From assembly GCF_009914755.1 (NCBI RefSeq), contig NC_060932.1: 64,000 bases of DNA. One strand, written 5' to 3'. This document shows, piece after piece, positions 25,716 through 52,859 of the stretch. Each line of letters starts with the position of its first letter. Position 1 is the first letter of the stretch. The translations under genes were made by a program, and so were the position numbers. The notes beneath the pieces were generated by a model. The model worked only from the letters and a program-made list of their open reading frames with translations, did not search any database and was not told where the DNA came from. This DNA comes from the human T2T-CHM13v2.0 reference genome, Homo sapiens.

Positions 25716-27037
25716 TCAACTATCCAAATATGATTGTAAATTTGTCTAGCTCTCTTTTTATTAATTTTGTCAATTTTTTTGTTTATGTATTTTGGGGCTC
25801 TGTTAGATATGTGCATATCTATGATTTTATGTCTTGTGAAATCACTATTTTATCATTATGAAATGTTCTTCCTTTGCCTTAAGTTGCTATATATTATTAA
25901 TATAACAACTCCAGCCTTCTTACCCGGTTTACATAATATGTATCTGTCCATTCTTTTCCTTTTAATCTATCTGCATTTTAAAATTTAAACTGTACCTCTT
26001 GCAGAATAGTTATGTCTTGCTTTTCCAAATATTAAAAAAAAATCTGCATTCCTAATTGGAATCCTTAGTTCATTTGCATTCAATGAAATTTTCGTGTGCT
26101 TGGATTTTTGTCTACCACTTCACTACTTGTTTTATATTTTTACTACTTTTTATTTCTCTGGTATTTGTTTTCTGACTTTTTTGAGTTAATTGCATTTTTA
26201 CAAAAATATTTTACTCTAATTTATCTATTTGCTTTAAAATTATACTACTTTGGAACATTTAAAATGGTTGCTCCAAGGCATAAAATACACATTTTTAACT
26301 TTTCACACCCCACTGGGAAATGTAAAAACCTTGCAATCATATAGGTCATTTTTTCTCACTCCATTTTGGCTATCATTGTCATATATAGTACATCTATACA
26401 TGATATACTTGTATATGTCAGATTTACATGTTTTTACTTTTCTCATTAAGCATTTAAAGCTATTTCCTTATAAACATTGCTGTAGTTGTATCTCATTATT
26501 TATAATATGCTATTTTTTATAATTCAATATAAAACATTTTGCATCTCTCTTGAGAGTTTCTTTGATTCGTACATCTTTTTGATCCATAGATTTTTTTGTT
26601 TTTGTTTTAAAACATTGGAACACACATACACACAATAATTTTTGTTGTAAATAGTGATGTGTTATCAAATTATGAAAAAAAATAATTGTGTTTAACCACC
26701 TCAACTCAACTTCTGATGCTCTTATTTTCTCTATAAGACCTGAGATTTCATTTGGTATCACCTCTCTTCATTGAAAAAGACTTTCTTCATGATTTCTTAT
26801 AGTGTTAGTCTGCTGAGGATGAATATTCTTTGTGCTAGTTTGTTTCAAGACTGACTTTGTTTCCCTTCATTCTTGTAGGATATTTTCACTGGATTTATAA
26901 TTCTTAGTTCTCAGTTTTATGTTGTAGCACTTTAAACATTGCTACAGTTTCTTCTGGCCTCTATTTTTTGTTTGCCTTATTTTTATATGTATGTAATGTG
27001 TCTTGGGGCACTGCTTTTAAGATTTTTATGCCATTTT

Positions 27038-27346
27038 TTCAACACCTAAAATTAATTACTACATAATTAATATTTGTTTCCATATTATACCTTGCTTCAT
27101 ATGTTAAAAAAACTAACAATATATAATACATATAATTAATGGCACTAATAACTTTTAAAATAGCCATAACAACATTTTAGTAAGTTTGATATCTCTTGGG
27201 ACATTACTAATTGTGTTAACATTATTACTAATTGTGATAATACCTAATGTGTGTCTAGAAAGCCTTGTTAATTCATTTGACTTTGAGTTAATAAAGTGAA
27301 TATTTCTTTGTGAAAAAGATTAAATTTATAAGACAGAGAAAAGAAA
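27038..27346 (+). other. Retroposed AT-rich sequence (orphan transduction or processed 3' UTR fragment)
   Basis: Perfect 19-bp TSD aagatttttatgccatttt (27019-27037, 27347-27365), TTTT/AA site, AATAAA 27290, ATTAAA 27319, A-rich end. Confidence 0.7.
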
Positions 27347-27497
27347 AAGATTTTTATGCCATTTTGGAAGTTCAGTGGTTTGACTCTGACATGCTTGGAC
27401 ATAATTTTTTTTATTTACCCTGTATGGGGCTTGCTGAGATTCTTAAAACTGTGAATTATGTCTTCCACAAAATTTTGGAAGTTTCTCACCACTATTT

Positions 27498-27745
27498 CTT
27501 ATATATCAAGATATATATTTATGTATAATATATAATGTAATATATGATATATGTAAGATATATATCTAATATATATGATATATCTTATATATATCATATA
27601 TAGTTTCATTTATATATATTTGCATATATATGGAATTATATATAGGTTCATTTGCATATATATGGAAATATATATATCATTCAATTTGCATATATATATG
27701 TGTATATATATACATATATATATACACACACATATATATATATAG
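27498..27745. repeat. (TA)-rich low-complexity repeat
   Basis: Degenerate TATA tract. Confidence 0.85.
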
Positions 27746-29492
27746 TTCCATTTCCTCTCTTCTCTCATTTTGGGACTCAAATTACATGAAACACATGGTT
27801 TTGATAAAGTCCTACAAGTCACTCAGGTTCTATGAAATCATTCTCAATCTTTTTTCTGCTTTCTCTAAATTGAACAATATTTATTGAGCTCTCTTCAAGC
27901 CCACTGTTTTTTTCTTCTGTAAATCTAATTGACTTCTAATCCCTAAAGGATGTATATTTTAAAAAATGATCTTATACTTTTTAGTTCTATAATTTTTATT
28001 TGATTGATTTTTATATCTTCCACTTTTCTGCTAAGATTCCTTTTTTTTCATTAATTATAAGCATGTTTTTAAATAGTTTTTGACAATGGTCATACTTGCT
28101 ACTTTAAAAATTCCTTTCTGCCAGTTCCAGCATCTGTGACATCTTAGTTTCAATGTATGTTGTCTTTTCTCTTGTGTATGAGTCATTTTTTCTGTTCCTC
28201 ACATATCTAATAACTTTGACTTGTATCCTCAACATTGTGAAGTCACTGGAGTCATTTGCCTGTGTTTCTAAAATATTAACCTTTGACTCACACTCTAAAC
28301 TCCATCTTTCCTGTAGTAGCAGAAACTGAAAGCTCTGATTGGTGTTTTAGCCTTAGCTATGTGTATCAGTCAGTTTGAGCTGCTACAATAAATTACCATA
28401 AGGTAGGTATAATTATCCCCCATCATGGAAAAGTCAAAGCATGGGCCACTCTCCTGGGTTGTTCCCTTCACTCAAGTTTTCTCTTCCCTTCGGGCCCTTC
28501 TGTGGGTTCATGTTCATTTTCTACTAGGTGGGGTGCTTGCACTGATTAATAGCCTGAAATATTTGCCTTCTTATTGATTGTTATACAACCTCTTTTAAAG
28601 TAAAAAAAAAAAAAGCATATTGCACAGAGAAGTGGATTTAAAATTTTTTTATGAATGAGCTATATAATTATGTTGATTCAGGCAATCAAAACTCATTGGA
28701 CTTCAATTCTGATAATTAGGAAATGTTTGATCTTGTATACTGAGAGAATGGGGAAGCTATTTGTTGCGTGTAATTTAACCTTTTGACTCATATTTTCCCT
28801 GGAGGCTCTAATGGTAGAGCACTCAGAAGTATTTGGTTTAGCTCCTATCTCAAAATTGCTGTCTAATAAAACACTTCAGTTTCTGCTTTATACTTCCATT
28901 GATTGGTGTTAAAATTGGCTTAGGAATACCAAACATTACAGTGTTTGAATTCGAAACATATAATCTTGTTATTGGAAAAAGCATATTTACTTTTAAATGT
29001 GTTCATAAAACATATTGGAAAAGGGCTACTAACTGTGCAATTTAGTGTGAACTGTGTGACTAATTTGTTTAAAATGTAAATGCAAAGTATTTGAATGTAA
29101 TTATTGACTGTCAAATTGATGATTACTGATTAATATTATTCATCAATGCACAATAGTTAACATGGATACCAAATTAGTTATAAAATCAGGAAGCTGTGAC
29201 TTTGGAAAAGGGAGGAGATCAGTACAGATTGATGTTTTAGGAAAAAAACTTCCAGTTTCGTAAAATGTCGTTAGCAACAAAAAAGAGTATATAGTGTACA
29301 CCAATATATGTTCTTTCAGTTGCTTTGTTTCTTAATATAACTTTTATTGTTAAGTTCTGCGTTTCTAATTTGACAGTATTCTTCAGGGAAAGAATCAAAA
29401 GGAAATTCTAAAAGAATTTCAGAAAACTTTTTTAATTGTTCAGAACTTATTGTAATTGCCTTTTAAAATTCAGATTCACCTTTGTTAATTAG

Positions 29493-29812
<320 letters not shown>

Positions 29813-30571
29813 AGATTCCAATTTTAATCTTGAAAACAAACTTAAAAAATTCTGCGCTATTGTTAACAGGAAATTTTGAGGCTTATAGTGTTTATTAATG
29901 TTCACACTTAGAGTTAGGTCATTAAAAATACTTACTTTATACTTTCCTAAAAATGTATTTTGATGTTTATTCCAGTACGTAAATTTTCCATTTATAATGA
30001 GAAACACAAAATTGAGTCTGATTTCTAGATCATTTTGGTTGTTAAAACTACTCTTATACCACATGTGAATGGAAGTTACAGTAAAAGGTACATAGTGAAT
30101 AGGGCAATCACAAATATAGTACTGTCTATTAGAACATTTGATAAAGATGGTAATGAATATATATATATGAGATATATAAAATCAAATATACTAAGAGATG
30201 GAAAAGCAAATGTATTTAACAAATCAAATATATACCACTGATGTTCTATAAAATGACTACCTACTGAAAATCTTCAAAAATAAACCTCAAAGTAATCTTT
30301 TCCTTGCTTTAACAAATTTCATGTAGATATTGCTTTAGCAAATGTCATGGTAGATTACCAAATAAGTATTAAACATGTGTTGCTAGTGTATATTTTGATG
30401 ATGCTCATCTTTGCCTAATAAAGCAATACATTTAAGGGGAAAAATGTTTGTCATCCTAGATCAAAGGCATCTAATATGTATAATATATATGCTATATAAA
30501 CACATATATTCTATATATAACATCTATGCAATATATATTACATATTATATATCCTATATATAATATAATGC

Positions 30572-30725
30572 ATATAATATATATGCAATTTAAAATGATT
30601 AGCATCCTAAAACTATTTATGATCCAGATCTGATCCAACATATATATAATATAGTGGATATAATATATATGCAATTTAAAATGATTAGCATCCTAAAACT
30701 ATTTATGATCCAGATCTGATCCAAC
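30572..30725. repeat. Exact 68-bp direct duplication with 18-bp spacer
   Basis: 30572-30639 = 30658-30725. Confidence 0.95.
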
Positions 30726-31417
30726 CTTTCAGTTAAAAGTTATATAATCTTACACCTCCTATTTAGTACTAATGCATTGTGTAGCTCCATGTTAGTGGGT
30801 TAAGACAAGGAATACATAGCAAAGCAATTAACTAACAATCAATCAATTAAAGTCAGTGGTATGTATGGATAAAGTTTGGAAGTGCCTGTGTGGTTAGTTG
30901 TTCAAAAACCTATAATAGAGTATAGGCTGTTAGCTTCCAACGTCTTGATGGCATAGGTTTTATCCCTCACTTAAAATCCAACTTTTTTTGCTTGGAGAAG
31001 ATAGAATAGTTGAGAAGGTAACAATTAATACCCAAAAATAAAATCTGAAGAAGCAACTCAAAAGCAATGGAAGTATTCATAAGGGAATACTTGATTCTTA
31101 CTGAGCTATTGGTTCTCTGCTTTCCATGTCTGTCTAGGCCAGTACTTATTTTCATGGTTAATTTACATCTCAGTGACTCCATATTTTTAGAAGTAATCAT
31201 AATTTAATTCCAAAGGCAAAATACTAATATGAAATGTGGTATGATTCCTTGAATAACACATGTAATTACTTTTAACATCTCAATTAATGTGGAAGATACA
31301 GGTAGATTTTTATGGGAAATTTATAGGCTTAGAAAGCTATAATTCATTTTATTAATAGAATATGTGAGCAAGAAGCATACATTTTGCTTATTTATTGATT
31401 TTTTTACTTCCTTATTT

Positions 31418-32080
31418 TTATATTATATATAAATTATATATTATATTTATATTATATATAAATTATATATTATATTTATATTATATATAAATTATATATT
31501 ATATTTATATTATATATAAATTATATATTATATTTATAATATATATAAATTATATATTATATTTATATTATATATAAATATATATATTTATATTATATAT
31601 AAATATATATATTTATATTATATATAAATATATATATTTATATTATATATAAATTATATAATTTATATTATATATAAATTATATATTATATTTATATTAT
31701 ATATAAATTATATATTATATTTATATTATATATAAATTATATATATTTATATTCTATGTAAATTATATATATTATATTTATATTCTATGTAAATTATATA
31801 TATTATATTTATATTCTATGTAAATTATATATATTATATTTATATTCTATGTAAATTATATATATATTATATTTATATTCTATGTAAATTATATATATAT
31901 TATATTTATATTCTATGTAAATTATATATATTTATATTATATGTAAATTATATATATATTTTTATTATATGTAAATTATATATATATTTTTATTCTATGT
32001 AAATTATATATATTATATTTTTATTCTATGTAAATTATATATATATTATATTTATATTCTATATAAATTACATATTATAC
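31418..32080. repeat. AT-rich minisatellite (~22-32 bp units)
   Basis: Units like tttatattatatataaattatatattata; the later variant carries ttctatgtaaat. Confidence 0.95.
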
Positions 32081-32081
32081 T

Positions 32082-32373
32082 GCTGGAGTTCAGTGGCTCT
32101 ATCTTGGCTAACTGCAAGCTCCGCCTCCTGGGTTCACACTATTCTCCTGCCTCAGCCTCCCGAGTAGCTGGGACTACAGGCGCCAGCCACCATGCCAGGC
32201 TAATATTTTTGAATTTTTTTTTTTAGTAGAGATGGGTTTCACTGTGTTAGCCAGGATGATCTCCATCTCCTGACTTCGTGATCCGCCCGCCTCAGCCTCC
32301 CAAAGTGCTGGGATTACAGGCGTGAGCCACCGCGGCCGGCCAGATTCCAATTTTAATCTTGAAAACAAACTTA
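32082..32373 (-). repeat. Tail-less duplicate of the AluY plus flank at 29552-29844
   Basis: Shares private Alu variants and the non-Alu flank agattccaattttaatcttgaaaacaaactta. Confidence 0.93.
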
Positions 32374-32379
32374 TAACAC

Positions 32380-32515
32380 GTTATAAACACGTTATGTTAG
32401 TGTTTCCATGGGAACACCTGAGAGGAGCACCTGGCCGAAACCAAGGAGTCAGGGAAGATTTCCTGAAAGACGTGCCACCTTGTCTCGTTAAATGTTAAAG
32501 GAGTAGCAGTGGTTA
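32380..32515 (-). repeat. Inverted duplicate of 33428-33563
   Basis: 136-bp reverse-complement match with about 5 mismatches. Confidence 0.93.
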
Positions 32516-33419
32516 TTGATTTATTGATTTTTTTACTTCCTTATTTAATAAGAAATATCAAATTAAAGCATTATAGTGAATTGGAATGGGAAAGCATATG
32601 AACGGGAAAAGTTTGATTCAAAACAGTTATAAGGATGGGATGTAGAAGGATCTCTGCTCCAGAGAGAAGCTATGAAATAATAAGAGGGAAAACTACTTAG
32701 GACCTGTGTGTCTTCCATGAGGTAGTGGAATGAAGAACTTTTCAGAGTTTCTGCCATAATTATGGTTATGATTCTTCATTTTGTTCTTGAAGCCCTTGGG
32801 GGGAAAAAAGGAGAAGCATAATCTTTATTATATTTCAAATTTAACCTCATTACATAAAACCCCAAAATATCTAATTCGGATTATTTCTTAAAATGTCAAT
32901 TCTTTTCCCTGATAGTTACCAGATAGGTTAGTTGACCCAGAGAATGAGGAAAGGCACAAAAGTCCTGTTTTTCTTGGTCTCTCATCAATCCAAGAACACA
33001 GAGGGATAATTTTTGTCTTCCTATTTGTTCAGTTTTTGAATCAACAACTTTCATTTAGAACTGGAGTTCCTACTATTACACTGAATATAGTGAAGGAGGT
33101 TACCAACTGAGTGCAGTACAATTTGAGAACTTTGATGCACAAGAATTCAGGAATGTGGGAATCCAGTTGTAATCTAAGCTCTCTACCCAGATGCCTCATT
33201 CAGTGGGCAGTGGTGACCATTTGCTGTCCTTCTGCTGAATTCCTGTCAAAGATCCTTGTCAGCAACCGAAAAGAAACAAGGCAAATTCATTTATGGGTAA
33301 CTTCTCTGTTTGCAAGCATCACTTCTTACCATCCCTGTGTTACAGATAAACTTACTGCACAAACGCAGTGGTCTTTATCTGCTCCTGCTGTTTAGTGGAA
33401 ATAGTGTTTTCTCAATCTC

Positions 33420-33715
33420 TTCTGGGTTAACCACTGCTCCTCCTTTAACATTTAGTGAGACAAGGTGGCACGTCTTTCAGGAAATCTTCCCTGACTCCTT
33501 GGTTTTGGCCAGGTGCTCCTCTCGGGTGTTCCCATGGAAACACTAACATAACGTGTTTATAACTATCTGTCTTGGGGACTGTTGTCCACTGAACTATAAA
33601 TTGCATAAGGTCAGGGAATATGTCTTCACTTTTGGATTTCCATCGTCCAGGATTGATCCTGGGCAATAAAGGATTCACGATAAAGCCCTGGTGAATGAAT
33701 CAACAAATGAATTTC
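33420..33715 (+). mobile_element. L2 3' fragment
   Basis: tcaggaaatcttccctgact...ggtcagggaatatgtc...gtgaatgaat. Confidence 0.65.
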
Positions 33716-48494: not shown

Positions 48495-50680
48495 TGTTTA
48501 TCCATTCAATGGCTACTTATAGCTCAACTATAATGGGGTCAGACACTGTGCTGTGCAATGGAGATACATGAGTGAGCAGAGTAGATGTGGCTTCTGCACT
48601 TACATAGGATTGAAAATGAAATAATCAATGGTGATAACATTTGTAGACTATACTTTGAGAGCTGTACAAGAACATCTCATTTCTTTTTGGGAGACCGTAG
48701 AACAAAAGTGCATGAAAAATAAGTAAGGTGGTTAAGTAAGCAGAAGGTTTAGGGAGCATTGGAAAGAGGTAAAATTATATGGGAAGGCCAGAGAGACAAG
48801 TAGTGGCATGGAACTGAAGGAAGTTCAGGATGGCTAGAATATGGCAAGTGTTGAGACGAGTGGAGAGCCAGGCAGGCGGCAGGCAGCAGGCTTTGTATGA
48901 CCTGTTAAATTACAACTGACACCCAAATAAGTCCAAGTGCATTCGTCTTTCTAGGATTATTTATCAAATTCCTACATTTTTTCAAGCTGTTTAAGATACA
49001 AAGATTAAAAAAGAACGATTTTTTAACCTATCGCATCTCCAATTTGGTGTAATAGAAAGTGAAATAAAAGGATGACAGTAATACAGAGTAAAAAGTGATA
49101 TGAATGTAAAAGCCAGAAGCTGCTAAAGAAACAGAAGAAGGAAAGTCAGGAGGAAGGTCTAGAGCCTGAGAAAGACTTAAGAGGTGATTCTTGGGTTGAG
49201 TCTTAAAGGCCATCGGAAGCTGGTGAAGCAGAGGAGGGAAGAACAGTTGAGGCAGTAGTACCGACGTGTCCAGTGGCTTAGAAGCACAAGGAACAAGATT
49301 TGTTCAGAACTGCAAGGGGAATGCTTTTATTACAGTAGCATTTGTCAAAGTGTGCCTCAGTAAACAATCTGCAAGAGGATCTGGAGACACTCTGTGTACT
49401 TCTTGGAAAGTTACAATGCCTATTAGTGCAGTAAGGGATCTGAAAATATCCACAGTGGGGAGTGCTGTTTAACTTTATTTCATATGGTGTTTTTCAGAAC
49501 AATTTGACCACAGAATTTCCTCTACTGTCTTCTTTTAGTTTAAAACCTATTAACATTCATTAAATACACCTTGAAGTTGATATTAGAACCTAGACTGGGT
49601 GGTGGAGGAGGTCAGAGGATGGGGCTACAGAAGGTCAGATCATGAAGACCTTGGTCTGCCAGGCAGATCGTTAGAGTAGAACGCACCCATTTCCTTCCAG
49701 GTGAAAGGTACTCCATTGATGTGGCACATCCAACTTTACTCACTCCACGCTAATGGGGTTGTGGGGAGTGATTCATATGAAAGGTAAATTTAGGAGGAGT
49801 TAAATGAGAGTATCATAGCTGTACCATTCCTCCTCTTGGAGTGTGCTGCCAGCTGGGAGCACCTGCTCCAGGTGGGAAGATTTGCTCTAGTTCAGCACCA
49901 CCTGGGTCTGGGAGGGCAATTTTCCTCTTTTGGGATTCAATATTAAGAGGTGCATTTGACTGTAAGAATAAACAATATTTCCAACATAGTTTCATTGGCA
50001 ATAAGGGAGATGTCTTAGTTAGCCATTCCTCATTCATTGTTTTATTTCTCAATCTCTTCAACATTTTTTATAGGCAAGGAGGTGATATGTGTTGACCTTC
50101 ATGAGATCCAGATATTGAGGATTTTGTCTTTATCCTGTAGATAATTGGGAACCACTAAAGTATTTTAACAGAGGAGTGACATTGCCAGATTTGCATTTGA
50201 CGGCTTAGATAGCAGTGTAGAAGATATATTAAAGGAGGAATAAATAGAGTCTGAGAAACCAATCTAAAAGGACAGCAGTAATCCAGACAAGAATTAATCA
50301 GATCTTGAACTACATCAATGGTAGCAATTCATTGGAGAAGGGGATGAATATGGAATACACATAGGAGGTTGAATGAACAGAATTAGGAGACTGATTAGAT
50401 GTATGATATTTGAGAGAGACAATCTAGCACAACTCTCAGATTTCTGAATAGAGCTGGTTTGCATTAATTTTGGTGGAAATGAAAAACTAGTTCTAGCAGA
50501 CTGAGTGGGCATGCCTTAGGAATCCAACTGGAGATGTCTAGGTGTTTGTTGTATATACCTGTCTGCATTCCAGAGACATTTATAGTCTAGAAATACAGAC
50601 ATGGCAGTTGTTGATTAATTCGTGGTACTCAATGTCATGACATCAATCAGGTTCTTTAGGAGGGTGTGTGGAACAAGAAT
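48495..50680 (-). mobile_element. Mosaic of antisense L2 fragments with other old insertions (MER103-like near 49400-49575)
   Basis: cagacactgtgctg, tttatcctgtagataattgggaaccact, agtgacattgccagatttgcattt. Confidence 0.55.
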
Positions 50681-50689
50681 ACTACCCAG

Positions 50690-50870
50690 TATCAATACTG
50701 AATACTTATTACATGCCCACTATGTACCAGCATTACATTAAACACTTTACACACATGCTCTCATTTAATTCTCATGAAAACTTTTTAAGGTGAGCACTAT
50801 TACACTATTATCATCACTTTCCAAATGAAACTTGGGAAAACAGACGGACTAGAAATGGCATCCTAGGAAC
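50690..50870 (-). mobile_element. MIR
   Basis: cactatgtaccag...ctcatttaattctca...aaatgaaact. Confidence 0.7.
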
Positions 50871-51092
50871 ACTAACATTTACGGGGCAGTTGAAGGGAAG
50901 AAATAAACAGTAAGAAAAGAAAAAGTGGTTGAAGAGAAAATAACTTTTAACACGAAGCATGGTGCTGAAATAAAAGAAGAACTGGTCAACAATTTCAAAT
51001 ACTTCATAGATGTGAAATAGAAGCTGAAGAGTTTCCACTTGATTTGGCAACTAGGAATCATATTTATTGTGTTCATAAACCTTCCCATGATA

Positions 51093-51115
51093 TATAATAT
51101 ATACACACACACATA

Positions 51116-51188
<73 letters not shown>
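51093..51188. repeat. Compound (CA)/(TG)n/(TA)n microsatellite in Alu tail
   Basis: Lies inside the Alu TSDs tcccatgata (51083/51484). Confidence 0.92.
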
Positions 51189-51191
<3 letters not shown>

Positions 51192-51483
51192 TTTTTTTTT
51201 TTGAGACAGAGTTTCACTCTGTCACCCAGGCTGGAGTGTGCTGCTATGATCTCTACTTACTGCAACCTCTGCCTCCTGAGTTCAAACGATTCTCGTGCCT
51301 CAGCCTTCCATGTAGCTGGAATTACAGGCACGTACCATCATACCCGGCTACATTTTTTTATTTTTAATAGAAGCGGATTTTGTCATGTTGGCCAGGCTGG
51401 TCTCAACCCCTGACCTCAAGTGATTAGCCCACCTTGGCCTCCCAAAATGATGGATTTGCAGCCGTGAGCCACCGCACCTGGCC
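51189..51483 (-). mobile_element. Alu (J/Sx-type)
   Basis: Antisense Alu body. Confidence 0.93.
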
Positions 51484-52859
51484 TCCCATGATACTTTAAA
51501 AATACTTGATAAAATACACTTGTATTCAGTAACATACACAGATGGTCTTTGTGGTTTGCTATTTTAATTATTTTTTACAGGGGACGTATATTCAGAGAGT
51601 TTTGCTATGCAATGCTCTTTGACAAATTTAACTTTATTCAGGGTTGGGGGTTAAGCCTGCTATGGGATTAAAGAACAGAAAACCACAGGGCTCTCATTCT
51701 CTTATTGTTTCTTCTATTAAGGGTCAAATTCAGGAGCATAGTGTACAATAGCAATTATTCGTCAGAAACTCAGTTCCCTGTTAGAATTCTACTCAGAAAG
51801 TAAATAGAAAAAAAGGAGAATTCTATATGCATTTGGGGGAAGAGACATGGTCGATGACCTAGAATTTGATGAAAATCACCTACCTGAGAGTCAGATTGAT
51901 TATTAAATAAATTAGCACCAATCAAAACTTCTAAGGCACAGAGCTAAATGAGCTTATGACCCTGTACATTGAGGGAGTTATTAGGATGCTAAATCTTAGA
52001 ACAAGTCTCTGCATGCATGAGTTTTAATGAAGCAGATGTACAAGCAGATGAACATTATTTTAAGAAGCAATCCTCTCCAAAAAACAAGATAATATTGTAG
52101 TTTTATCAGCAATTGTTTACATACCACTTGATTTCTAGATTTAACGCTGATTAACAATGCACTTTCTTTTATAATCTACTTTTTTATCATTGGTCTGGCT
52201 AATTTATAAGATTTTGTGTCTGTGTGTTCCTTCTGAAAACAGTAGAAAAATGATATTGTAACAATAAATATGGAGCTTACACAATGGGAAACAAGGAAGA
52301 GAAATCTTAACATCAATGGCAGAGTTAATGTAGAATTGCAGAATGCAGGCCCAAAGTAATAAGGATAAGGTGACAATCTTGATCTGGTTAAGAGATATAT
52401 AGTACCTCGCGCATTATGACTGTCCTGTTACTTGGAGTCGTTGACAACTGACTAAACATAGGGACACATTTGGTATTCTTTTGCATTCAGCAGAATGCAG
52501 CAGAATAAGCTTGGCAGATATAAAAAAACATTTATGTTCCTCCTTCTGCCCTTCTCCATCCCCTTTTGAAGTGCCTATACACAGGGGCTTTGCCTGGGGA
52601 TTTCCCAGGGCTCCTCCTGCCAAACAAGCTCAGGCAGGGCAGAGGGGTCTCAAAATCCTGAGGACTTGGTTGTGAATTTGGAGTCTGAATTATTTATCTG
52701 TTTTCATTCCTAGCACATTTGCCTATTTTTTTCTTTTATTCAAAACAGTCTATTTAATTTCTGAAATGCAAAAGAATGTTTGGCATGGATAAATAGCTGT
52801 GATTTCTCTCTCTGATAAATCTTGCAATGTTAGAGTTTACCAAAGAGAACCCACATATT

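What the first reader, a model, noticed from the sequence alone, without database searches (positions are those of the whole stretch)
31390..32546. Composite templated insertion stitched from three local sources
Seen: a 28-bp direct repeat atttattgatttttttacttccttattt (31390-31417 and 32519-32546) encloses ~1.1 kb. Inside are (a) an AT minisatellite, (b) a ~292-bp same-orientation copy of 29552-29844 (AluY without its tail plus 32 bp of non-Alu flank) and (c) a 136-bp inverted copy of 33428-33563. Junctions show stutters (ttataacacg then ttataaacacg; ttattgat twice). Copied flank and no poly(A) argue against retrotransposition. Inference: serial template switching (FoSTeS/MMBIR or Pol theta-like repair), one jump ~2 kb upstream and one downstream on the opposite strand, then return. 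I count about 9 substitutions and 1 indel between the Alu copies, so the event is not very recent but postdates this AluY.
Basis: partly seen in the sequence, partly recalled or inferred. Interest (0 to 1): 0.8.

Follow-up and report, generated by a model that had tools for sequence, protein, structure and literature searches.

The report
Old patchwork insertion copied from neighbouring DNA
An intron of human CNBD1 carries a 1.1-kb insertion patched together, probably about 15 million years ago, from two nearby stretches of the same chromosome plus an AT-rich repeat array; it is a clear example of a known kind of error-prone DNA repair, not a new phenomenon.

Summary
A perfect 28-mer occurs only at 31390-31417 and 32519-32546 (0 expected). 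Between the two copies lie four things. First, a 662-bp AT minisatellite of about 23 units of 25-33 bp. Second, a direct 293-bp copy of 29552-29844: a tail-less antisense Alu plus 32 nt of unique flank, with 9 substitutions and 1 indel. Third, an inverted 136-bp copy of 33428-33563 with 5 substitutions. Fourth, short fillers that re-copy 8 and 11 nt of the adjoining template.

Both traceable junctions share the 3-nt microhomology TTA. The two copies are equally diverged (3.1% and 3.7%), which dates the event to about 15 My (95% CI 8-25).

The best reading is one DNA-templated repair or replication accident that copied two donors within 2.5 kb, followed by later growth of the array. However, only two local sources can be traced; the minisatellite has none.

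The closest described class is the "repair-mediated duplications" of Pace et al. 2009: 824 proximal cases in human, 20 with two donors. This is therefore a new member of a known kind. Serial template switching (MMBIR/FoSTeS) and two-ended SDSA cannot be told apart from sequence alone. No primate or pangenome sequence was available, so the empty-site test was not run.

The parts
31390..31417 (+). Left copy of the 28-nt flanking direct repeat (duplicated target sequence)
   Evidence: Exact match to 32519-32546. These are the only two matches in the window with up to 3 mismatches, and 0 of 100 shuffles gave a match.
31418..32079 (.). AT-rich minisatellite, about 23 units of 25-33 bp. The left half has the unit variant ..TTATATATAAATT.. 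and the right half ..TTCTATGTAAATT... It has no traceable donor.
   Evidence: TRF gives period 29, 23.2 copies, 91% matches. Unit listing and composition T360 A282 C10 G10. No stand-out local source. It does not fold better than shuffles (z = -0.20).
32080..32081 (+). Two orphan bases (CT) between the array and the Alu copy
   Evidence: They match neither donor A's upstream bases nor the array unit.
32082..32373 (+). Copy A: a direct copy of 29552-29844. It is an antisense Alu lacking its last ~20 nt and its tail, plus 32 nt of unique flank beyond the Alu 5' end.
   Evidence: 293 aligned positions with 9 substitutions and 1 indel. 96.3% identity, against at most 86% to any other Alu in the window.
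32374..32379 (+). Filler TAACAC. Together with the preceding TTA it is an imperfect extra copy (one A short) of the first 11 nt of copy B.
   Evidence: Sequence read and junction print-out.
32380..32515 (-). Copy B: an inverted copy of 33428-33563
   Evidence: 136 nt, 96% complementary, 5 substitutions.
32516..32518 (+). Filler TTG. With its neighbours it makes TTATTGAT twice in tandem (32513-32528), whereas the target has it once.
32519..32546 (+). Right copy of the 28-nt flanking direct repeat. Its last 7 nt and the next 6 nt (32540-32552) form the 13-nt palindrome CTTATTTAATAAG, which spans the point where the insert begins in the left copy.
29552..29844 (+). Donor A, part of a full-length antisense Alu (26-nt T tail at 29499-29524) plus its right flank. 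It lies 2.2 kb upstream of copy A and 1.6 kb upstream of the target site.
33428..33563 (+). Donor B, embedded in sequence that is single-copy within the window. It lies 0.9 kb downstream of copy B.
   Evidence: In one search the 421-nt context matched only itself and copy B.

Best explanation
One germline DNA-repair or replication accident, roughly 15 My ago, opened the chromosome at (or stalled a fork on) a small palindrome in a CNBD1 intron.

A 3' end was then extended by a poorly processive polymerase that primed on 3-nt microhomologies. It copied 293 nt from a donor 1.6 kb upstream in direct orientation and 136 nt from a donor about 2 kb downstream on the opposite strand. At two switches it slipped back and re-copied 8 and 11 nt. 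It rejoined the original template 26-28 nt behind the point it had left, which produced the flanking 28-nt direct repeat.

A short AT-rich filler next to the left repeat later grew into a 0.66-kb minisatellite by slippage or unequal exchange.

Shown: the anatomy, the donors, the direction donor to copy, the junction motifs, the equal divergence. Inferred: a single event, the enzyme class, the order of switches, the later growth of the array.

I lean to one nascent strand switching templates in series (MMBIR/FoSTeS-like). A two-ended SDSA capture gives the same product.
For: - The perfect 28-mer is found only at the two ends of the insert.
- Copy A includes 32 nt of unique flank, lacks the Alu tail, and matches that Alu at 96.3% against at most 86% for the others.
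- Copy B is inverted and matches only 33428-33563 in the window.
- A, B and one 86-bp tandem repeat are the only local duplicates of at least 92% identity and 40 bp in 64 kb.
- TTA is shared at the A/B and B/target junctions. P(microhomology of 3 nt or more) is 0.069 per random local junction and 0.005 for both.
- Tandem re-copies of 11 and 8 nt sit exactly at those two junctions.
- A and B are equally diverged: 9 of 293 against 5 of 136, Fisher p = 0.77. Zero differences in 28 nt is expected with P = 0.40.
- Private changes occur on both lineages. Of 10 differences, 6 are donor-derived, 3 copy-derived, and 1 was called copy-derived on a 4-to-3 outgroup split.
- The class is documented. There are 824 proximal (<5 kb) repair-mediated duplications in human, 20 of them chimeras of two donors, with microhomology 2-9 nt, filler 1-68 nt and TSD 4-21 nt. 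None of the 39 inspected proximal cases had a poly(A)/T tail (PMC2671141, sections read).
Against: - No outgroup or population sequence was available, so neither the empty site nor the single-event claim is shown.
- Two of the four junctions (target/array, array/copy A) have no traceable template and no microhomology.
- 28 nt is longer than the 4-21-nt TSD range in Pace et al.
- The break point reads ATTT/AA on the + strand, one mismatch from the L1 endonuclease preference, and an AT-rich array sits where a tail would be for a minus-strand retrocopy.
- There are no low-copy repeats near the endpoints, which is one of the three MMBIR hallmarks.
- My parsing of microhomology in the presence of fillers is not unique.
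Confidence: 0.75

Rival explanations
1. Two-ended SDSA capture. This is a sub-variant of the same class, as modelled by Pace et al. After a staggered double-strand break, the left 3' end copied the upstream donor (and whatever seeded the array). The right 3' end folded back and copied its own downstream region in inverted orientation. The two new strands then annealed at TTA.
For: - Each donor lies on the side of the end that would have copied it.
- 3-nt complementarity sits exactly where the two copies meet. The same is shown for the chimeric example of Pace et al., which has a 3-nt overlap plus filler.
- 20 chimeric cases are reported, 5 of them with both donors local.
Against: - It needs complementary 28-nt 3' overhangs that failed simply to re-anneal.
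- The stutter at the B/target junction is not needed in this model.
- It does not explain the array.
Confidence: 0.3
2. Stepwise origin. The pieces (array seed, A, B) arrived in separate events at a locally fragile AT-rich site, and the 28-mer repeat belongs to only one of them.
For: - The region has another local duplication: an 86-bp tandem at 30555-30725, 97.6% identical.
- The array has clearly changed after its birth, with block-wise unit variants.
Against: - There is no second pair of flanking repeats around A or B alone.
- A and B abut through a microhomology-plus-stutter junction.
- Their divergences are indistinguishable.
- Proximal captures are rare, about 824 in the TE-derived part of the genome. 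Two independent hits a few bases apart are therefore very unlikely.
Confidence: 0.1
3. L1 machinery. Either L1 endonuclease made the staggered nicks, or L1 reverse transcriptase copied local RNAs with template switching (a chimeric retrocopy read on the minus strand), and the tail later turned into the AT array.
For: - A flanking target duplication is present.
- The nick site ATTT/AA (32543-32548) is one mismatch from the 5'-TTTT/A-3' preference listed for class 1 TSIPs (abstract of PMC5110952).
- The AT-rich array occupies the tail position for a minus-strand element, and T exceeds A, 360 to 282, on the + strand.
Against: - There is no poly(A)/T run within the insert.
- The Alu copy stops about 20 nt before the Alu's own 3' end and runs 32 nt upstream of its 5' end, so it is not an Alu transcript.
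- The two pieces would need RNAs from opposite strands, both from within 2.5 kb. Locality is not expected for RNA templates. In Pace et al., 0 of 39 proximal cases had tails against 17 of 29 distant ones.
- An AT-rich site matching the endonuclease motif with one mismatch is weak evidence in DNA that is 75% AT.
Confidence: 0.07
4. Assembly artefact in T2T-CHM13.
For: None found. AT-rich arrays are hard to assemble, so the array length could be off.
Against: The copies differ from their donors at 14 of 429 positions plus an indel, with changes private to each copy. A collapsed or mis-joined assembly would give identical copies.
Confidence: 0.01

Closest known systems
[quoted passage not shown]
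   Same: - Donors are on the same chromosome within 5 kb (here 0.9 and 2.2 kb from their copies).
- Copy sizes of 136 and 293 bp fall within their range (mean 162, max 619).
- No poly(A)/T tail.
- Microhomology, filler and TSD at the breakpoints.
- A chimera of two donors joined at a 3-nt overlap, as in their Figure 4 legend.
- The age falls in the hominid to catarrhine window in which they find most events.
   Different: - The TSD of 28 nt exceeds their 4-21 nt.
- A 0.66-kb minisatellite is part of the insert.
- The target is not inside an annotated transposable element, so their pipeline could not have found it. 'CNBD1' gives 0 hits in Table S1. I saw only 15 of its chr8 rows by coordinate.
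- They do not discuss stutters.
FoSTeS/MMBIR complex rearrangements (Hastings, Ira, Lupski 2009, PMC2621351, abstract read; Gu et al. 2016, PMC5120786, passages read)
   Same: - Discontinuous duplicated pieces, one of them inverted.
- 2-5-nt microhomology at junctions.
- Signs of low-processivity synthesis with repeated template switches.
- Templated insertions of hundreds of bp at junctions (376 and 815 bp in Gu et al.).
   Different: - The scale is about 1 kb, with no net copy-number change of kilobases to megabases.
- No low-copy repeats near the endpoints.
- It is an old event, not a de novo disease allele.
Polymerase-theta-mediated end joining with templated insertions (Roerink et al. 2014, PMC4032859, passages read)
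   Same: - The two stutters (re-copies of 8 and 11 nt of the adjoining template) and minimal priming homology look like iterative annealing and extension.
- Copy B could be a snap-back on the resected strand.
   Different: TMEJ inserts are short and templated from the immediate flanks, and they usually accompany 50-200-bp deletions. Here the main pieces are 136-293 nt, come from 0.9-2.5 kb away, and the target shows a duplication, not a deletion.
Class 1 templated sequence insertion polymorphisms / L1-mediated retrocopies (Onozawa and Aplan 2016, PMC5110952, abstract read)
   Same: A flanking target-site duplication, and a T-rich nick site one mismatch from the preference.
   Different: - No poly(A).
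- Donors are local and on opposite strands.
- The Alu is copied with upstream flank and without its 3' end.
AT-rich minisatellites of rare fragile sites such as FRA16B (Burrow et al. 2010, PMC2875025, passages read)
   Same: The unit is about 30 bp and almost pure A+T. 23 copies is of the order of unexpanded alleles (7-12 copies of a 33-bp unit on normal chromosomes).
   Different: - The unit sequence is different.
- No evidence of expansion or fragility at this locus.
- The array does not fold better than composition-matched shuffles.

Membership tests
Proximal repair-mediated duplication (Pace et al. 2009) | The inserted sequence has exactly one other copy, on the same chromosome within 5 kb | tested here: met
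   Within the 64-kb window, A and B each match one donor only, 2.2 and 0.9 kb away. Genome-wide uniqueness could not be tested because the own-genome search gave no answer.
Proximal repair-mediated duplication (Pace et al. 2009) | Acceptor of at least 50 bp, not in tandem with the donor (more than 50 bp apart) | tested here: met
   293 and 136 bp, at distances of 2235 and 913 bp.
Proximal repair-mediated duplication (Pace et al. 2009) | No poly(A)/T tract of 5 bp or more at an end of the insertion | tested here: met
   The insert starts TTATATT and ends GGTTATTG. The run of 5 T at 31415-31419 is 3 T of the flanking repeat plus 2 T of the insert.
Proximal repair-mediated duplication (Pace et al. 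2009) | Breakpoint signatures: microhomology, filler, TSD or deletion | tested here: met
   TTA microhomology at two junctions, fillers of 2, 6 and 3 nt, a 28-nt TSD.
Proximal repair-mediated duplication (Pace et al. 2009) | Empty orthologous site in an outgroup | not testable with these tools
   No primate or human pangenome sequence is reachable. The collections on offer are prokaryotic, viral or plasmid.
FoSTeS/MMBIR rearrangement (Hastings et al. 2009) | Complex product: discontinuous duplicated segments, some inverted | tested here: met
   One direct and one inverted segment from two sides of the site.
FoSTeS/MMBIR rearrangement (Hastings et al. 2009) | Microhomology of 2-5 bp at junctions | tested here: inconclusive
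   3 nt at 2 of 4 junctions, and none at the two junctions that touch the array. The chance of 3 nt or more is 0.069 per junction.
FoSTeS/MMBIR rearrangement (Hastings et al. 2009) | [quoted passage not shown] | tested here: not met
   No other local duplicate of at least 92% identity and 40 bp in the window, apart from an 86-bp tandem repeat. Only 64 kb was examined.
FoSTeS/MMBIR rearrangement (Hastings et al. 2009) | Arises during replication from a broken or stalled fork | not testable with these tools
   It cannot be read from a fixed sequence.
Pol-theta end joining with templated insertion (Roerink et al. 2014) | Short insert identical to sequence immediately flanking the junction | tested here: not met
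   The main pieces are 136-293 nt from 0.9-2.5 kb away. Only the two stutters (8 and 11 nt) meet this feature.
L1-mediated insertion (class 1 TSIP, Onozawa and Aplan 2016) | Target-site duplication | tested here: met
   28-nt perfect repeat.
L1-mediated insertion (class 1 TSIP, Onozawa and Aplan 2016) | Poly(A) tail downstream of a polyadenylation signal | tested here: not met
   No A or T homopolymer at either end of the insert. The copied Alu lacks its own tail.
L1-mediated insertion (class 1 TSIP, Onozawa and Aplan 2016) | Insertion at 5'-TTTT/A-3' | tested here: inconclusive
   The site reads ATTT/AA (32543-32548). That is one mismatch, in DNA that is 75% A+T.

The most novel reading that the evidence does not exclude
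The AT-rich minisatellite was born in the repair event itself. The same stuttering polymerase that re-copied 8 and 11 nt at the other two junctions repeatedly slipped on an AT-rich ~29-nt stretch and laid down the first tandem units. This locus would then record the birth of an FRA16B-type AT-rich VNTR from the filler of a templated insertion.
Probability: 0.25. Interest if true: 0.5.

Novelty: new member of a known kind. Interest (0 to 1): 0.3.

Why it matters
It is a clean, fully parsable natural example of multi-donor local templated insertion in the human germline. Both donors are still in place a kilobase or two away. The junctions keep microhomology and stutters, and there is a built-in clock. 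Such cases help calibrate how often error-prone copying, and not retrotransposition, duplicates short sequences.

It lies outside annotated transposable elements, so the one systematic survey I read could not have seen it.

It also shows an AT-rich minisatellite whose seed must have arrived with, or grown out of, a repair junction. That bears on how such arrays arise.

It has no evident effect on CNBD1: the window holds no exon, and the RefSeq enhancer lies 2.9 kb away. It does not change what is known about these mechanisms.

Tried and rejected
1. A local donor for the minisatellite. By eye, the last and the right-half units resemble the AT block at 30.50-30.55 kb. Local alignment scores against that block (18) were no better than, or below, those against other AT blocks at 27.0-28.0 and 50.6-51.6 kb (16-25). 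Rejected.

2. A longer original duplication. BLAST extended the 28-mer match to 58 columns at 84.5% into the array start and the right flank. But 480 of 5704 windows (8.4%), and 354 of 1163 AT-matched windows (30%), score as well against the array. This is chance.

3. A special hairpin or cruciform potential of the array. MFE is -86.4 against a shuffle mean of -85.7 kcal/mol, z = -0.20, with 10 of 20 shuffles as good. Composition only.

4. Search of the window's own genome for further copies. The tool gave no usable answer, and I did not repeat it.

6. Is the event already listed by Pace et al.? 'CNBD1' has 0 occurrences in Table S1. Of 151 occurrences of 'chr8' I saw the first 30 (15 rows), none between 82.3 and 96.3 Mb in hg18. 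The other rows were not checked by coordinate, and I did not convert this locus to hg18.

7. A literature search for CNBD1 with tandem repeat or structural variant listed nothing on this locus among the 8 rows shown of 4,868. Only the listing was seen.

8. Direction of synthesis (leftward or rightward). Both give the same stutters between the same native 4-5-nt repeats. Not resolvable.

9. Alu subfamily. No repeat library was available. 'AluY' rests on diagnostic positions recalled from memory and was not tested.
Full report
**What is there**

The 28-mer at 31390-31417 recurs exactly at 32519-32546. Nowhere else in the 64-kb window does it match, even with three mismatches, and 0 of 100 dinucleotide-preserving shuffles produced a match.

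Read on the + strand, the 1101 bases between the two copies are:
- An AT-rich minisatellite, 31418-32079. TRF gives period 29, 23.2 copies, 91% matches. Composition is T360 A282 C10 G10.
- Two orphan bases, CT.
- Copy A, 32082-32373, a direct copy of 29552-29844.
- Six bases, TAACAC.
- Copy B, 32380-32515, the reverse complement of 33428-33563.
- Three bases, TTG.

**The two donors**

Donor A is most of a full-length antisense Alu with a 26-nt T tail at 29499-29524. The copy starts about 50 nt inside the tail end, so it lacks the tail and the last ~20 nt of the Alu. It runs through the Alu 5' end into 32 nt of unique flank (26 nt by NCBI's mask).

BLAST of this Alu against the window gave 16 rows. 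The copy is 96.3% identical; the 13 other full or partial Alu matches are 70.7-85.9% identical; and one row is a 37-nt fragment. The copy is therefore a paralogue of this particular locus and not a new Alu insertion.

Donor B lies in sequence that is single-copy within the window. The copy differs from it at 5 of 136 positions.

A whole-window self-comparison found only three local duplicates of at least 92% identity and 40 bp: A, B, and an 86-bp tandem repeat at 30555-30725.

**Which is donor and which is copy, and when**

The 29.5-kb Alu is complete with its tail. The 32-kb copy is truncated at the Alu 3' end, which target-primed reverse transcription does not produce. The composite A+B is the one bracketed by the 28-mer.

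I polarised the 10 A differences with 9 other Alus of the window. Six changes (5 substitutions and the indel) were assigned to the donor and 3 to the copy. One further change was called copy-derived on a 4-to-3 outgroup split and is best treated as ambiguous. In addition, 25 of 267 columns carry a state shared by donor and copy but different from the outgroup majority. So both lineages have drifted since the copying.

A and B are equally diverged (9/293 against 5/136, Fisher p = 0.77). Pooled, 14/429 = 3.3% (Poisson 95% CI 1.8-5.5%). I applied the rate that Pace et al. use for donor-acceptor divergence, 2.2e-9 per year. This gives 14.8 My (8.1-24.9). Zero differences in 28 nt is unremarkable at that divergence (P = 0.40).

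By my reading of the contexts printed, about 3 of the 9 A changes and 2-3 of the 5 B changes are at CpG sites. The true age may therefore be somewhat lower.

**Junctions**

*A to B.* Donor A ends ..AAACTTA and then continues AAAAA. Donor B (reverse complement) reads ..GATAGTTATAAACACGTTATG. The product reads ..AAACTTATAACACGTTATAAACACGTTATG. So TTA is shared, and the 11-nt unit lying between the native GTTAT..GTTAT repeat of donor B is present twice, the first copy one A short.

*B to target.* Donor B ends ..GTGGTTA and then continues ACCCAG. The target reads GCTTATTTATTGATTTTT. The product reads GTGGTTATTGATTTATTGATTTTT. Again TTA is shared, and TTATTGAT is present twice in tandem.

Random junctions drawn from the surrounding pre-event sequence show 3 nt or more of microhomology in 6.9% of 200,000 trials, which is 0.5% for both junctions. 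My parsing in the presence of fillers is not the only one possible.

The other two junctions (28-mer to array, array to A) show no microhomology and no traceable template.

The point where the insert begins falls in the middle of a 13-nt palindrome of the empty site, CTTATTT|AATAAG (32540-32552).

**The minisatellite**

It lies inside the 28-mer pair, with no unique sequence between it and either neighbour. Its seed therefore came with the event or grew from the junction.

Its left half has units with ..TTATATATAAATT.. and its right half units with ..TTCTATGTAAATT... The outermost right unit is intermediate, and two units are recombinant-like. So the array has been remodelled since its origin.

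I could not find a donor for it:
- The AT block at 30.5 kb scores no better than unrelated AT blocks at 27-28 and 50.6-51.6 kb.
- The apparent extension of the flanking repeat into the array is at chance level (8.4% of all windows and 30% of AT-matched windows score as well).
- The array does not fold better than shuffles of the same dinucleotide content (z = -0.20).

**Mechanism**

The following all point to DNA-templated copying in one event:
- The copied unique flank.
- The missing Alu tail.
- The inverted second piece.
- Donors on both sides within 2.5 kb.
- Microhomology with stutters at exactly the two traceable junctions.
- Equal ages of the two pieces.

A poorly processive polymerase extended a 3' end that repeatedly dissociated and re-annealed. 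It finally re-engaged the original template 26-28 nt behind the departure point, which creates the flanking repeat without any need for a staggered cut.

[quoted passage not shown] Gu et al. regard iterative template switches and long templated insertions as its signature (passages of PMC5120786).

A two-ended SDSA capture, in which each end copies a donor on its own side and the new strands anneal at TTA, yields the same product. It is the model Pace et al. give for their 20 chimeric cases. The short stutters resemble Pol-theta iterative annealing and extension (passages of PMC4032859), but the long, distant main pieces do not. I cannot tell these apart, nor the direction of synthesis.

**Rivals**

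*An L1-based origin.* Three things stand for it: the flanking duplication, a nick site one mismatch from the preference, and the position of the AT array. Against it: there is no tail, the Alu is copied with upstream flank and without its 3' end, RNAs from opposite strands would be needed, and both sources are local. In Pace et al., 0 of 39 proximal cases had tails against 17 of 29 distant ones.

*Stepwise arrival.* This is unlikely given one repeat pair, an A/B junction of the same style as the B/target junction, equal divergence, and the rarity of such captures.

*An assembly artefact.* This is excluded in practice by the 3.3% divergence with private changes on both sides.

**Relation to what is known**

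The event meets every testable criterion of a proximal repair-mediated duplication (Pace et al. 2009) and is one of the rarer two-donor chimeras. It was probably not in their list. Their screen only looked inside annotated transposable elements, and 'CNBD1' does not occur in Table S1. I saw only part of that table by coordinate.

It departs from their series in two ways: the 28-nt duplication (their range is 4-21) and the attached minisatellite.

Against the three MMBIR hallmarks it meets complexity, partly meets microhomology, and does not meet proximity to low-copy repeats.

**Limits**

- No primate, GRCh38 or pangenome sequence could be reached.
- The empty site, the fixation status, genome-wide uniqueness of the donors, the Alu subfamily and the repeat class of donor B are therefore untested.
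- The labels AluY and L2-like rest on recall only.

**Verdict**

It is ordinary in kind: a new member of a known class. It is also unusually legible, and its AT-rich array may have been seeded by the repair junction.

Noticed in passing
window 30555-30725: An 86-bp tandem duplication (2.0 copies, 97-97.6% identical) in an AT-rich block that lies between donor A and the insertion site. Its divergence (about 2.4%) is close to that of the insertion (3.3%). It could be of similar age, or even a by-product of the same episode of instability.
   Followed up: partly
window 30304-30355: A 26-27-nt unit repeated twice in tandem (88% matches), 0.2 kb upstream of the AT-rich block. This is another small local duplication in the same 3-kb stretch.
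   Followed up: no
window 32540-32552: The empty target site holds a 13-nt palindrome, CTTATTT|AATAAG, and the insert begins at its centre. The same point reads ATTT/AA, one mismatch from the L1 endonuclease preference.
   Followed up: partly
window 31418-32079: The array has two block-wise unit variants: A..A in the left half and C..G in the right half. The rightmost unit is intermediate (C..A), and two units are G-only at 31929-31984. This shows turnover by unequal exchange after mutation. Unit size and composition recall the AT-rich minisatellites of rare fragile sites, so the array is likely length-polymorphic in people.
   Followed up: partly
window 27001-28000 and 50601-51600: Other AT-rich blocks score as high against the minisatellite unit as, or higher than, the nearby 30.5-kb block. 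They overlap stretches masked as repeats (27507-27771, 51253-51511). I did not look at what they are.
   Followed up: no
window 29489-29496 and 29813-29825: The donor Alu seems to keep its own short target duplication (AGATTACC before the T tail, AGATTCCAATTTT after the 5' end, the latter ending in TTTT/AA). The right-hand one was copied along into the insertion at 32342-32354.
   Followed up: no
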